Source of the DNA: Naegleria gruberi
Lineage: Eukaryota
Reading direction: 5' to 3' (one strand)
DNA: 1,711 bases
Assembly (NCBI GenBank): GCA_000004985.1
Contig: GG739340.1
Shown piece after piece: positions 1-1,711 of this stretch; the stretch's first letter is position 1; every line of letters begins with the position of its first letter. The notes beneath the pieces were generated by a model. That model was not told where the DNA came from and did no database searches. It worked only from the letters and a program-made list of their open reading frames with translations. The position numbers and the translations under genes were made by a program.

Positions 1-180
1 TGGAATAATATTTTATTAAATAATAATAATAATAATAATTTAAATGATGATATTAATATTATTTTAAATAATAATTTAAATGATGATAATAATAATGAAA
101 TTAATCAATTAAATAATAATAATATTAATATAAATAATAATAATAATATAAATAATGAATTTAATAATAATAATAATGAA
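1..180 (+). repeat. (AAT)n-rich trinucleotide low-complexity region encoding a poly-Asn/Asn-Ile-Leu-Asp tract. It includes a 15-nt direct repeat, aatttaaatgatgat, at 37-51 and 74-88.
   Basis: Perfect (AAT)6 at 22-39. Further (AAT)4-5 runs at about 112-123, 134-146 and 163-177. The sequence translates in frame 1 to NNNNNNNLNDD...NNNNNELIN. The phase is kept with the downstream channel ORF, so the tract is coding rather than a neutral microsatellite. Confidence 0.85.
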
Positions 181-1170
181 TTAATTAATATACTAAATAA
201 AGTAAGTGATAAAATAATTGGAAAAGTAAAAGATAAAATAGAAAAACCAACCTTGATACAAATATTTAAAGATTTTATAAAAATATTATCATCATTTATA
301 ATAATATTAATATTTATATTTATAGGATCATTACCAATTATGTATATTGAACAATTAAATGAAAAATCTAAAAATAATAAAATAGAAATATGGACATATT
401 TAAATAGTGTATATTACATGACAATAACATTAACTACAATTGGATATGGAGATATAACACCATCAACTTCATTTGGTAAAATATATATAGTAATATTTGC
501 TTTAATAGGATTATCTATAATGGGTTTATGGATTTCCTTTATTGGAAGTGCAGTAATGAATTCATTTGGAATTAGTATTTTTATTTTATTATTATATTTT
601 AAAAGATTTTTAAATTATTTATTTAAAAGTATAAAAAATTTAAATTTTATTTCAACATTTAATTTAATTACATCAAATGAATTAACAAATTTAGAAATGA
701 AATTATATTCATTTTTTAATAGAGGAATTACACAAATATTTAATATGATTATTATTTTAATTTTATATTTAATATTTGGTAGTATATTATTTTCATATAT
801 AGAAGAATGGACTTTTATAAATTCTTTTTATTTTACTTTTATATCACTTACTACAATTGGATATGGTGATATTACTATAAAAAGTAATTTAGGTAAAATA
901 TTTTTATGTTTTTATGTCATGTTAGGTTTAAGTTTATTAGCAATGTTATTAGGTTTTATAGGTAAATCTATTAAAGAAAGAATTATGGATAATTTATTAA
1001 AAGCACAACATGCTACTTTTATGGAAATGAAATATTCAATTGAAAATCAATCTATACAAAATGTTTTTGATAAATTTAAAAAATTACATTCAAATAGTTT
1101 AGAACATGTTAATAATATTTTATTACCTATTAAAAATAATATTTTTATTAAAAATGTAATTAATAAATAA
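1..1170 (+). CDS. Two-pore-domain (K2P/TPK-like, 4TM/2P) potassium channel subunit, 5'-partial. Asn-rich N-terminal region (nt 1-252) followed by M1-P1-M2-M3-P2-M4 and a cytoplasmic tail of about 68 aa.
   Basis: Frame 1 has no stop codon from nt 1 to the TAA at 1168-1170. Frames 2 and 3 close within the first 20 nt (taa at 17-19 and 5-7). An uninterrupted 390-codon frame in roughly 85% AT DNA is strongly non-random. Two in-frame copies of the K+ channel signature T-T-I-G-Y-G-D lie at nt 436-453 and 853-870. Each is preceded by a pore-helix-like segment (WTYLNSVYYMTITL and WTFINSFYFTFISL) and followed by a hydrophobic helix. Four hydrophobic helices can be read by eye: M1 about nt 283-348, M2 about 475-552, M3 about 739-801, M4 about 895-963. 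No in-frame ATG lies upstream of M1 within the window. The first in-frame ATG is inside M1 at residue 30 of the tracked ORF, so the true start is upstream of the window. Confidence 0.8.
   Translation, partial: WNNILLNNNNNNNLNDDINIILNNNLNDDNNNEINQLNNNNININNNNNINNEFNNNNNELINILNKVSDKIIGKVKDKIEKPTLIQIFKDFIKILSSFIIILIFIFIGSLPIMYIEQLNEKSKNNKIEIWTYLNSVYYMTITLTTIGYGDITPSTSFGKIYIVIFALIGLSIMGLWISFIGSAVMNSFGISIFILLLYFKRFLNYLFKSIKNLNFISTFNLITSNELTNLEMKLYSFFNRGITQIFNMIIILILYLIFGSILFSYIEEWTFINSFYFTFISLTTIGYGDITIKSNLGKIFLCFYVMLGLSLLAMLLGFIGKSIKERIMDNLLKAQHATFMEMKYSIENQSIQNVFDKFKKLHSNSLEHVNNILLPIKNNIFIKNVINK
391..552 (+). other. Pore domain 1: pore helix, selectivity filter TLTTIGYGD (nt 427-453) and inner helix M2.
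   Basis: In-frame codons aca att gga tat gga gat at 436-453 give TIGYGD. The flanking sequence, WTYLNSVYYMTITLTTIGYGDITPSTSFGKIYIVIFALIGLSIMGLWISFIGSAV, has the canonical K+ channel P-loop architecture, including the IGLS/GL glycine hinge in M2. Confidence 0.8.
808..963 (+). other. Pore domain 2: pore helix, selectivity filter SLTTIGYGD (nt 844-870) and inner helix M4.
   Basis: In-frame codons aca att gga tat ggt gat at 853-870 give TIGYGD. The flanking sequence is WTFINSFYFTFISLTTIGYGDITIKSNLGKIFLCFYVMLGLSLLAMLLGFIG. It aligns position by position with pore domain 1 on the pattern W-T-x-x-N-S-x-Y-x-x-x-I-x-L-T-T-I-G-Y-G-D-I-T ... G-K-I ... L-x-G-L-S ... F-I-G. Confidence 0.8.
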
Positions 1171-1237
1171 TTATTTATTTATTTTATTATTTAATTATAT
1201 ATTAAAAAAATGTTTAATTATATATTAAAAATTCTAA
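1171..1237. other. 67-bp convergent intergenic region between two stop codons, about 92% AT. It probably holds the 3'-end processing signals of both genes.
   Basis: It is bounded by the + gene's TAA at 1168-1170 and the - gene's TAA (complement of 1238-1240). All six frames close here. It is composed almost entirely of A/T. Confidence 0.6.
1191..1231. repeat. Perfect 18-bp direct repeat, ttaattatatattaaaaa, at 1191-1208 and 1214-1231, separated by the 5-nt spacer aatgt.
   Basis: Read directly from the sequence. The two copies are identical over 18 nt and lie inside the 67-bp convergent intergenic spacer. Confidence 0.9.
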
Positions 1238-1711
1238 TTAAACATCAACATTCCATGGATAATAATGTTGTAAAATATCAGTTGATTTTCTATTTGAACA
1301 AGTATCAATAACATTAAATAAATAATTACTAAAATTAGATAAATTTTGAATGAACATATCATTTAAAGAATTAACTTTTTTAGTAAAATAAACAGAATAA
1401 GTTTGTTCTAATAAGGAAGATTGTTCCCAAAAACCATTATAATAAAAATCATTTGGTAATATTTCTAAAATAGCTAATTGTTTAGGTGCAAATCTTGAAT
1501 TATAAAAAGAAGCACCATGTGGACCAAATATTAATTTAGTATTATTAAATAATTTATATAAACTTTCTAAATTTGGATATAAATTTATATTACAAATTAA
1601 TAATTCTTCATTTTTGTTTCTTTTTTTTAATTCTAATTTTATATAATTAATTAATTCATTTTCATTTTCAATTCTTCTACCTAAATTATTTATATTACTA
1701 TTTCTAGAACA
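1238..1711 (-). CDS. C-terminal 157 codons plus stop of a protein whose N-terminus lies beyond the window (5'-partial on the - strand). Tentatively a GT61/DUF563-like glycosyltransferase.
   Basis: The reverse-complement frame has no tta, cta or tca triplets on the + strand in phase from 1241 to 1711. It ends at the complement of tta at 1238-1240, which is a TAA stop. Translation: CSRNSNINNLGRRIENENELINYIKLELKKRNKNEELLICNINLYPNLESLYKLFNNTKLIFGPHGASFYNSRFAPKQLAILEILPNDFYYNGFWEQSSLLEQTYSVYFTKKVNSLNDMFIQNLSNFSNYLFNVIDTCSNRKSTDILQHYYPWNVDV*. Codon usage matches the + gene (ggt, cca, aga, tta, caa). The motif LFNNxxLIFGPHGAxxxN (nt 1499-1552) and the downstream acidic/hydrophobic ILEILP (nt 1454-1471) resemble the conserved hhhGxHGAGLTN ... 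hhEhhP core recalled for GT61 (DUF563) transferases. The family assignment is from memory and not verified. Confidence 0.65.
   Translation of the reverse strand, partial: CSRNSNINNLGRRIENENELINYIKLELKKRNKNEELLICNINLYPNLESLYKLFNNTKLIFGPHGASFYNSRFAPKQLAILEILPNDFYYNGFWEQSSLLEQTYSVYFTKKVNSLNDMFIQNLSNFSNYLFNVIDTCSNRKSTDILQHYYPWNVDV

What the first reader, a model, noticed from the sequence alone, without database searches (positions are those of the whole stretch)
253..1170. Compact 4TM/2P two-pore potassium channel with two identical TTIGYGD filters in an AT-rich protist genome
Two complete K+ channel P-loops, each with a perfect T-T-I-G-Y-G-D filter, sit in one polypeptide between four hydrophobic helices. 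This is the K2P/TPK architecture (M1-P1-M2-M3-P2-M4). In animal K2P channels the second filter usually deviates to GFG or GLG. Here both are canonical GYGD, as in plant TPK channels, but the C-terminal tail is short (about 68 aa, nt 964-1167) and shows no EF-hand-like acidic loops. The M1-P1 extracellular linker is also very short (about 15 residues, EQLNEKSKNNKIEIW), so the large extracellular cap of animal K2Ps is absent. K2P-type channels from Amoebozoa-like organisms are essentially uncharacterised functionally, which makes this a candidate minimal leak K+ channel.
Basis: partly seen in the sequence, partly recalled or inferred. Interest (0 to 1): 0.55.

Follow-up and report, generated by a model that had tools for sequence, protein, structure and literature searches.

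The report
Protist two-pore potassium channel gene fragment
The window holds most of a gene for an ordinary-looking two-pore-domain potassium channel. Its closest relatives are unstudied channels of Naegleria-type amoebae, and it is cut off by the window edge, so it is neither "compact" nor from a Dictyostelium-like organism.

Summary
The two TTIGYGD filters are real (nt 433-453 and 850-870). Each half matches Pfam Ion_trans_2 on its own (69.5 and 74.3 bits). An AlphaFold2 model (pLDDT 82.9) gives M1-P1-M2-M3-P2-M4 and matches solved K2P structures. The gene is therefore a two-pore-domain K+ channel subunit.

The boundaries and framing are wrong. The frame is open from nt 1 to the TAA at 1168-1170 (389 codons). 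The "start" at 253 is a TTG picked by bacterial ORF rules. The first in-frame ATG lies inside M1, and conserved sequence begins near nt 178, so the N-terminus lies upstream of the window.

The closest relatives are Heterolobosea (Willaertia magna, Naegleria lovaniensis; 45-48% identity; 98% bootstrap). Amoebozoan channels are more distant. Relatives carry a 70-340 aa hydrophilic N-terminus. Most full-length ones have a conserved Cys-x2-Cys-x3-His...Cys module there, so "compact/minimal" is unsupported.

A missing cap and two GYGD filters are normal for non-animal 2P channels. An extra conserved hydrophobic stretch after M2 is modelled as a continuation of M2 and aligns to helix S6b of fungal TOK.

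Verdict: a new member of a known kind, functionally uncharacterised, of modest interest.

The parts
1..177 (+). Coding, Asn/Asp-rich low-complexity spacer ((AAT)n-like). The frame is open to the window edge, so the true N-terminus lies upstream.
   Evidence: Translation; TRF period-3 AAT array at 19-177. Equivalent low-complexity spacers occur in the Willaertia and Naegleria relatives.
178..252 (+).
   Evidence: Aligned to KLFNNFS[DE]KL[IM]G...KP of P0001-P0003; 6 K/R residues, consistent with a cytosolic location.
253..369 (+). M1 outer helix (aa 85-123).
   Evidence: Kyte-Doolittle peak 2.71 at aa 95-113; AF2 helix at fragment residues 24-62.
370..396 (+). Short extracellular turret (aa 124-132); no cap helices.
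   Evidence: AF2 loop at fragment residues 63-71. There are 24 residues between the M1 hydrophobic core and SF1, against 72-105 in five of the six animal K2Ps in which M1 was detected; the sixth, 15 in Meloidogyne, I take for a mis-detection.
397..453 (+). Pore helix 1 (aa 133-144) plus selectivity filter 1, TTIGYGD (aa 145-151, nt 433-453).
469..558 (+). M2 inner helix (aa 157-186).
   Evidence: Kyte-Doolittle peak 2.56; AF2 helix; end of the first Ion_trans_2 domain.
559..636 (+). Conserved hydrophobic and basic extension of M2 (NSFGISIFILLLYFKRFLNYLFKSIK, aa 187-212). It is modelled as one continuous helix with M2 and aligns to the S6b region of fungal TOK.
   Evidence: Fifth Kyte-Doolittle peak 2.05. 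AF2 gives a single 56-aa helix, and the same in P0081. Conserved as MNSFG.G.F..LLY.KR in the closest relatives (P0001-P0003, P0084), with only the hydrophobic character and the LY.KR end kept in more distant ones. Alignment to CaTOK residues 295-501; S6b is described in PMC13323377.
688..720 (+). Short conserved cytosolic linker helix (ELTNLEMKLYS, aa 230-240).
   Evidence: AF2 helix at fragment residues 169-179; the conserved motif EL...E+.L..F.N.G.TQ.
724..804 (+). M3 outer helix (aa 242-268).
   Evidence: Kyte-Doolittle peak 2.68; AF2 helix.
814..870 (+). Pore helix 2 (aa 272-283) plus selectivity filter 2, TTIGYGD (aa 284-290, nt 850-870).
886..963 (+). M4 inner helix (aa 296-321).
   Evidence: Kyte-Doolittle peak 2.43; AF2 helix.
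964..1170 (+). Cytosolic C-terminal tail (68 aa) plus the TAA stop at 1168-1170. The first ~25 aa are conserved, and the tail is modelled as a helix continuing M4 to about aa 370.
   Evidence: no EF-hand at Pfam E<=1.

Best explanation
Nt 1-1170 (+) is the 3' part, at least 389 codons, of a nuclear protist gene for a two-pore-domain (4TM/2P) K+ channel subunit. It belongs to a heterolobosean (Naegleria/Willaertia/Acrasis-type) clade.

Shown:
- Two Ion_trans_2 pore domains lie in one chain, each with a canonical TTIGYGD filter.
- The modelled order is M1-P1-M2-M3-P2-M4.
- There is no extracellular cap.
- K/R-rich segments sit before M1, between M2 and M3, and after M4, which fits termini and M2-M3 linker on the cytosolic side.

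Inferred from the established behaviour of K2P, TPK and TOK channels:
- Two subunits dimerise so that four P-loops form one pseudo-tetrameric K+-selective filter.
- M2 and M4 line the inner pore.
- Gating is at the filter and/or by M4 and M2 movement.

Inferred from family conservation:
- Gating is modulated by cytosolic elements: the pre-M1 segment, the hydrophobic TOK-S6b-like M2 extension, the linker helix and the post-M4 helix.
- By analogy with orthologues, it may also be modulated by an N-terminal Cys2-His-Cys module encoded upstream of the window.
- The protein is therefore probably a regulated K+ channel rather than a minimal leak pore.
For: - Pfam Ion_trans_2 scores 132.9 bits on the whole ORF, and 69.5 and 74.3 bits on the separate halves.
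- The filters are located.
- PDB phmmer finds TOK at 1.8e-24 in one collinear stretch spanning P1, linker and P2, and many K2Ps at 1e-18 to 1e-14.
- The AF2 model has pLDDT 82.9 and pTM 0.72. Its Foldseek best hits are TREK-1, TREK-2, TWIK-1 and TRAAK.
- An exhaustive phmmer search gives Willaertia, a metagenome protein and N. lovaniensis as the top three, at 45-48% identity and 3e-78 to 1e-68. Acrasis and a Willaertia paralogue are identified.
- A neighbour-joining tree gives 98% bootstrap with the Willaertia/Naegleria orthologues and 80% for the clade that includes Acrasis.
- The chance of an open frame this long is about 4e-20.
- The charge distribution is 6/6/11 K+R in the three cytosolic segments against 3/0/0/1 in the external loops.
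- In the orthologues the first TM-like peak is M1, with none N-terminal to it.
- The N. lovaniensis orthologue is a single exon with a convergent neighbour 29 nt after its stop. This resembles the 67-nt convergent spacer in the window.
Against: - No function has been measured for any member of this clade in the papers searched.
- The N-terminus is missing from the window, so the full architecture is inferred from orthologues.
- No dedicated topology predictor or dimer model was available. The post-M2 hydrophobic stretch (Kyte-Doolittle 2.05) could be read as a fifth TM.
- The source organism is unidentified, with no relative above 48% identity among about 15 billion proteins. Its composition (GC 15%, GC3 5%) is far more extreme than Willaertia at 25%. 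Horizontal acquisition by another host cannot be excluded.
- TOK channels with canonical filters can be only modestly K+-selective (PMC13323377). Selectivity is therefore predicted, not shown.
Confidence: 0.88

Rival explanations
1. One reading: a complete, compact 305-aa minimal leak K2P/TPK-type channel of an Amoebozoa-like (dictyostelid-type) organism, starting at nt 253.
For: the ORF listing reports 253..1170 as an ORF. The DNA is AT-rich with poly-Asn tracts and superficially resembles Dictyostelium. The 4TM/2P core is real.
Against: - 253 is a TTG, and the frame is open to nt 1.
- There is no in-frame ATG before M1.
- 25 conserved residues lie upstream of 253.
- The nearest relatives are Heterolobosea. 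No dictyostelid appears among the hits that carry a source name, and nothing in the library exceeds 48% identity. Three other amoebozoans score only 1e-27 to 1e-30.
- There are no ATC, TTC, AAC or AAG codons in 389 codons, and ATA makes up 51% of Ile codons. From my own knowledge of its codon table, this is unlike D. discoideum usage.
Confidence: 0.05
2. A fungal-TOK-type 8TM/2P channel whose S1-S4 bundle lies upstream of the window.
For: The best solved-structure sequence match is the TOK pore module, in a single stretch that includes the M2-M3 linker. It shares the missing cap and an S6b-like M2 extension.
Against: Orthologues with complete N-termini (P0002, P0003, P0080-82, P0086, P0097) show no hydrophobic peak before M1, whereas Aspergillus TOK shows four. 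The Willaertia upstream ORF is hydrophilic. In the tree the two TOK-like fungal sequences (Aspergillus, Thelocarpon) form a separate branch and the third fungal sequence (Circinella) falls with the amoebozoan group; neither groups with the query.
Confidence: 0.03
3. The gene is carried by an AT-rich giant virus (or a viral insertion) that captured a host channel gene.
For: - GC is extremely low.
- Two intron-free genes converge, 67 nt apart.
- The neighbouring gene has no detectable close homologue.
- No source sequence is present in the cellular protein collection.
Against: - There is no relative in IMG/VR by exact DNA or by protein.
- BFVD holds only single-pore viral K+ channels of 80-180 aa, none at E<=0.001.
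- The orthologues sit on 0.4-1.1 Mb cellular contigs among housekeeping genes.
- N. lovaniensis shows even tighter convergent spacing, at 29 nt.
Confidence: 0.04

Closest known systems
Heterolobosean 'potassium channel domain-containing' proteins: Willaertia magna ABK040_003306 (P0001), Naegleria lovaniensis C9374_006997 (P0003), Acrasis kona KAL0477057 (P0094)
   Same: Collinear from the pre-M1 segment to about 25 aa past M4 at 45-48% identity (P0001, P0003). They share the family-specific motifs WISF[IV]GGA[VI]MNSFG..F..LLY.KR and EL..E+.L..FFNRG.TQI. Bootstrap support is 98%.
   Different: The window protein is much more AT-biased, with a poly-Asn spacer, the shortest turret and a short tail. 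Its N-terminus is not in the window, so the CCHC module of the relatives cannot be seen. None of these proteins has been studied functionally.
Fungal TOK1 pore module (CaTOK 9pik; ScTOK1)
   Same: Cap-less tandem pore. It gives the best solved-structure sequence match (1.8e-24), in one stretch covering P1, linker and P2. The hydrophobic M2 extension aligns to S6b. SF2 is TIGYGD.
   Different: TOK has four extra N-terminal TM helices (the TALC domain) and a C-terminal four-helix bundle, and its SF1 is often GLG. The orthologues here have no extra TM helices. AF2 models the M2 extension as unbroken rather than as S6a/S6b. The tree does not join the two clades.
Animal K2P/KCNK channels (TREK-1, TREK-2, TWIK-1, TRAAK)
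   Same: 4TM/2P subunit. These are the best fold matches (Foldseek E about 6e-7, target TM-score 0.5-0.6). A dimeric pseudo-tetrameric pore is presumed.
   Different: There is no extracellular cap: 24 residues from M1 to SF1 against 72-105. Both filters are GYGD, whereas K2P alters the Asp of SF1 and the Tyr of SF2 (PMC13323377). Sequence identity is only 17-25%.
Plant TPK/KCO vacuolar two-pore K+ channels
   Same: 4TM/2P, cap-less, GYGD in both filters.
   Different: No C-terminal EF-hands. The plant sequences form a separate clade. The 14-3-3 site cannot be assessed because the N-terminus is missing.

Membership tests
Two-pore-domain K+ channel superfamily (two Ion_trans_2 domains per chain) | Two non-overlapping pore domains in one polypeptide | tested here: met
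   Pfam PF07885 scores 69.5 bits (aa 102-186) and 74.3 bits (aa 251-324) when the halves are scanned separately. The halves are 47% identical over 58 aa.
Two-pore-domain K+ channel superfamily (two Ion_trans_2 domains per chain) | K+ selectivity signature T-x-G-[YFL]-G in both P-loops | tested here: met
   TTIGYGD at aa 145-151 and aa 284-290.
Two-pore-domain K+ channel superfamily (two Ion_trans_2 domains per chain) | Four TM helices, both P-loops on the same (outer) side, termini cytosolic | tested here: met
   - AF2 helix order is M1-PH1-M2-M3-PH2-M4, with the post-M2 hydrophobic stretch continuous with M2.
- K+R counts are 6/6/11 inside against 3/0/0/1 outside.
- The fold matches solved K2Ps.
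- Caveat: no dedicated topology predictor was run, and there is a fifth hydropathy peak.
Two-pore-domain K+ channel superfamily (two Ion_trans_2 domains per chain) | Dimeric assembly conducting K+ | not testable with these tools
   Only monomer prediction was available; this needs a multimer model and electrophysiology.
Animal K2P / KCNK | Extracellular cap formed by a long M1-P1 linker (domain-swapped) | tested here: not met
   There are 24 residues between the M1 core and SF1, against 72-105 in five of the six animal sequences in which M1 was detected (the sixth gave 15, probably a mis-detection). The AF2 model shows a 9-residue loop and no cap helices.
Animal K2P / KCNK | Characteristic filter deviations (SF1 Asp replaced; SF2 GFG or GLG) | tested here: not met
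   Both filters are GYGD. The animal sequences in the set show GFG or GLG in SF2. The rule is stated in PMC13323377.
Plant TPK | C-terminal Ca2+-binding EF-hands | tested here: not met
   No EF-hand family at Pfam E<=1. The feature is described in PMC8619664; AtTPK4 also lacks it, so it is typical rather than universal.
Plant TPK | N-terminal 14-3-3 binding site | not testable with these tools
   The N-terminus lies upstream of the window.
Fungal TOK | Eight TM helices: an S1-S4 (TALC) bundle N-terminal to the tandem pore | tested here: not met
   This was tested on orthologues only. P0002, P0003, P0080-82, P0086 and P0097 have no hydrophobic peak before M1, whereas Aspergillus TOK has four. 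The Willaertia upstream ORF is hydrophilic. The window's own N-terminus is absent.
Fungal TOK | Cap-less pore with a cytosolic S6b extension of the first inner helix | tested here: inconclusive
   The conserved post-M2 segment aligns to the TOK S6b region. AF2 models it as an unbroken helix without the S6a/S6b break. TOK's features are from PMC13323377.
Heterolobosean 2P clade (unnamed) | Collinear similarity including the clade-specific M2-extension and linker motifs; monophyly | tested here: met
   45-48% identity to P0001-P0003 over about 300 aa. The motifs are seen. Bootstrap support is 98% and 80% (a crude neighbour-joining tree on 218 columns).
Heterolobosean 2P clade (unnamed) | N-terminal C-x2-C-x3-H ... 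[VI]-C-[DE] module | not testable with these tools
   The module is intact in seven proteins (P0002, P0003, P0080-82, P0086, P0097) and in the ORF just upstream of Willaertia P0001; it is degenerate in P0107. It would lie upstream of nt 1 of the window.

The most novel reading that the evidence does not exclude
The gene comes from an unsampled, extremely AT-rich heterolobosean lineage. It belongs to a Discoba-specific class of cap-less 4TM/2P K+ channels that combine three things:
- a TOK-like pore module, including an S6b-type M2 extension;
- a previously undescribed N-terminal Cys2-His-Cys (possibly Zn- or redox-sensing) regulatory domain;
- a possible position as a 4TM relative of the pore of the supposedly 'fungal-specific' TOK channels.
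Probability: 0.2. Interest if true: 0.45.

Novelty: new member of a known kind. Interest (0 to 1): 0.27.

Why it matters
If expressed and functional, this would be one more cap-less two-pore K+ channel from a eukaryotic supergroup (Discoba) in which none has been characterised.

The more useful leads concern the clade rather than this copy:
- a conserved, unannotated N-terminal CCHC module;
- a TOK-S6b-like M2 extension.

These bear on how tandem-pore channels diversified and on whether the TOK pore module is truly fungal-specific. The window sequence itself adds little beyond existing database entries for Naegleria and Willaertia.

Tried and rejected
- Exact look-up of the 389-aa product found no record.
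- An exact 44-mer DNA search found nothing in IMG/VR or in the JGI metagenomes.
- Protein-guided scans of viral and metagenome contigs found no relative.
- A homologue search with the 157-aa GT61 fragment, run to identify the organism, found nothing.
- The afdb50 fold library was unavailable.
- The BFVD viral fold search returned only single-pore viral channels, none significant.
- Rfam found nothing. NCBIfam gave only sub-threshold prokaryotic K+ channel hits.
- Inverted repeats in the 67-nt spacer are only AT-rich low-complexity pairings, with no convincing hairpin.
- A profile of the relatives' N-terminal CCHC module against PDB and Pfam gave no credible match.
- No synteny was found: neither the Willaertia nor the N. 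lovaniensis locus has a GT61 neighbour.
- Deep placement relative to the animal, plant, fungal and amoebozoan 2P clades is unresolved (20% bootstrap).
- Rejected: a dictyostelid origin, a TOK-type 8TM reading, a viral origin, and a fifth TM helix.
Full report
**What is in the sequence**

The window is 1711 nt at 15% G+C.

- Frame 1 of the + strand is open from nt 1 to a TAA at 1168-1170, which is 389 codons.
- At this base composition a stop is expected about every ten codons. An open frame of this length has probability about 4e-20, and the other two + frames carry 56 and 75 stops.
It takes the first TTG after the window edge.
- There is no in-frame ATG before codon 114, which lies inside the first TM helix.
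- Residues conserved in relatives begin near codon 60, about nt 178.
- The gene is therefore cut by the window. The first ~60 codons are an Asn/Asp low-complexity tract, and the true N-terminus lies upstream.

**The observation**

- TTIGYGD occurs twice, at aa 145-151 (nt 433-453) and aa 284-290 (nt 850-870).
- Pfam Ion_trans_2 scores 132.9 bits on the whole ORF. Scanned separately, the halves score 69.5 bits (aa 102-186) and 74.3 bits (aa 251-324).
- The halves are 47% identical to each other over 58 aa.
- Hydropathy shows the four expected peaks (M1 to M4).
- No EF-hand is detected. The tail after M4 is 68 aa, as stated.

**Structure and topology**

An AlphaFold2 model of aa 62-389, built on a 34-sequence alignment, has pLDDT 82.9 and pTM 0.72. 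In ORF numbering it gives:

| Element | Residues |
|---|---|
| M1 | 85-123 |
| Loop | 9 residues (124-132) |
| Pore helix 1 | 133-144 |
| Filter 1 | 145-151 |
| M2 plus its hydrophobic extension, as one continuous 56-residue helix | 157-212 |
| Short linker helix | 230-240 |
| M3 | 242-268 |
| Pore helix 2 | 272-283 |
| Filter 2 | 284-290 |
| M4 running into a long C-terminal helix | 296-370 |

- An independent model of the relative P0081 shows the same unbroken M2 extension.
- Foldseek against the PDB returns TREK-1, TREK-2, TWIK-1 and TRAAK as best hits (E about 6e-7, target TM-score 0.5-0.6).
- K+R counts are 6, 6 and 11 in the pre-M1, M2-M3 and post-M4 segments, against 3, 0, 0 and 1 in the four outer loops. 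This fits N-in/C-in topology with both P-loops outside.
- The fifth hydrophobic stretch is therefore not a TM hairpin, although a naive predictor might call it one.

**Relatives**

- A word-indexed search and an exhaustive phmmer of 1.84 billion cluster representatives agree. The three best hits are Willaertia magna ABK040_003306 (48%, 3e-78), a JGI metagenome protein (47%) and Naegleria lovaniensis C9374_006997 (45%).
- Next come metagenomic proteins, an Acrasis kona protein and a Willaertia paralogue.
- Amoebozoan two-pore channels (Thecamoeba, Mastigamoeba, Vermistella) are more distant, at about 1e-27 to 1e-30.
- Nothing exceeds 48% identity, so the source organism's protein is not in that collection.
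- A crude neighbour-joining tree (218 columns, 100 bootstraps) groups the query with the Willaertia, Naegleria and P0002 orthologues at 98%. It places them in a clade with Acrasis at 80%. The relation to the animal, plant, fungal and amoebozoan clades is unresolved at 20%.
- The 'Amoebozoa-like' attribution is therefore not supported. The gene is heterolobosean in type.
- Its composition (GC3 5%; no ATC, TTC, AAC or AAG codons) is more extreme than Willaertia at 25% or Naegleria at 33-37% (PMC6892926).

**Why 'compact/minimal' fails**

- Relatives with complete N-termini have 70-340 hydrophilic residues before M1 and no additional TM peaks. The Aspergillus TOK control shows four.
- Seven of them share an N-terminal motif, C-x2-C-x3-H...F..N...[VI]-C-[DE]. 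C, C, H, F and C are invariant in the six compact copies aligned.
- The Willaertia orthologue seems to lack this motif. However, a 219-aa 'gene' only 89 nt upstream on the same strand carries it, followed by acidic and poly-Asn spacer. The gene model is probably split.
- The module matches nothing in Pfam or the PDB. In P0081 it is modelled as a small beta-hairpin-plus-helices domain at pLDDT 70-87.
- The window opens in what looks like the equivalent low-complexity spacer.
- The clade also conserves cytosolic elements: the pre-M1 segment, the M2 extension (MNSFG.G.F..LLY.KR in the closest relatives), the linker helix (EL..E+.L..F.N.G.TQ) and about 25 residues after M4. This argues for a regulated channel rather than a bare leak pore.

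**Comparison with known families**

- The best solved-structure sequence match is the pore module of fungal TOK (9pik, 1.8e-24). It comes as a single collinear stretch through P1, the linker and P2. K2Ps match as two separate stretches.
- The CaTOK paper describes a cap-less, non-domain-swapped pore whose first inner helix continues as a cytosolic S6b (PMC13323377). The query's M2 extension aligns to that region.
- The clade lacks TOK's S1-S4 helices and does not group with the fungal sequences.
- It fails the animal K2P hallmarks. There is no cap: M1-to-SF1 spacing is 24 residues, against 72-105 in five of the six animal sequences in which M1 was detected; the sixth gave 15, which I take for a mis-detection. 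In the plant, fungal, amoebozoan and heterolobosean sequences the spacing is 12-40.
- It also lacks the K2P filter deviations and the EF-hands typical of plant TPKs.
- The short linker is the norm for every non-animal 2P channel in the set. GYGD in both filters holds in all the plant sequences and in many, not all, of the protist ones. Acrasis P0094 and metagenomic P0086 also have two identical TTIGYGD motifs. These features are therefore not remarkable.

**Rivals considered**

- A viral origin was considered because of the composition and the tight convergent gene pair. IMG/VR holds no relative, and BFVD holds only single-pore viral channels with no significant match.
- The orthologues lie on 0.4-1.1 Mb cellular contigs. 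In N. lovaniensis the gene is intron-free, with a convergent neighbour 29 nt after the stop.
- The alignment to orthologues is collinear, so no intron is needed within nt 178-1170.

**Mechanism**

By inference from K2P, TPK and TOK, two subunits dimerise and four TTIGYGD loops form one K+-selective filter. M2 and M4 line the pore, and gating is probably controlled through the conserved cytosolic elements. None of this has been measured for any member of the clade in the papers I could search.

**Verdict**

This is a genuine two-pore-domain K+ channel gene fragment and a new member of a known kind. The clade-level features (the CCHC module and the TOK-like M2 extension) are the only leads worth following.

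Noticed in passing
window 1238-1711 (- strand): This is the C-terminal 157 aa, plus stop, of a convergent gene that runs off the 3' edge. Pfam gives Glyco_transf_61 (PF04577, 45.2 bits, 1.5e-11). It contains a GPHGA motif. The word-indexed search found no homologue, so it did not help to identify the organism.
   Followed up: partly
window 1171-1237: A 67-nt AT-only spacer lies between the two convergent stop codons. It contains an exact 18-nt direct repeat, TTTAATTATATATTAAAA, at 1190-1207 and 1213-1230 (TRF period 23). No convincing hairpin was found. It might be a shared 3'-end signal or simple slippage.
   Followed up: partly
Relatives P0002, P0003, P0080-82, P0086, P0097; L002:5253-5912: A conserved N-terminal C-x2-C-x3-H...F..N...[VI]-C-[DE] module, possibly a Zn site, precedes the channel in this clade. 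It has no Pfam or PDB match. In Willaertia it sits in a separately annotated 219-aa gene 89 nt upstream of the channel gene, which is probably a split gene model.
   Followed up: partly
window 1-1170 (codon usage): Codon bias is extreme. GC3 is 5%, with zero ATC, TTC, AAC or AAG codons in 389, and ATA makes up 51% of Ile codons. This is more biased than the published genome GC of Willaertia or Dictyostelium. No relative exceeds 48% identity among about 15 billion proteins, so the source organism appears to be unsampled or unannotated.
   Followed up: partly
window 1-1170, reverse-complement frame 2: The antisense frame has only 6 stops in 1170 nt, against 50-58 in the other antisense frames. 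This is probably a by-product of the codon bias (NNT/NNA codons) rather than a second gene.
   Followed up: no
hits (e.g. P0088, P0089 Thecamonas, P0091, P0092, P0095): Many protist relatives match in four separate stretches. They are single chains with four pore domains, a whole pseudo-tetramer in one polypeptide. P0004 matches in three. P0085 carries four filter motifs in its sequence, although one search lists it with two matched stretches.
   Followed up: no
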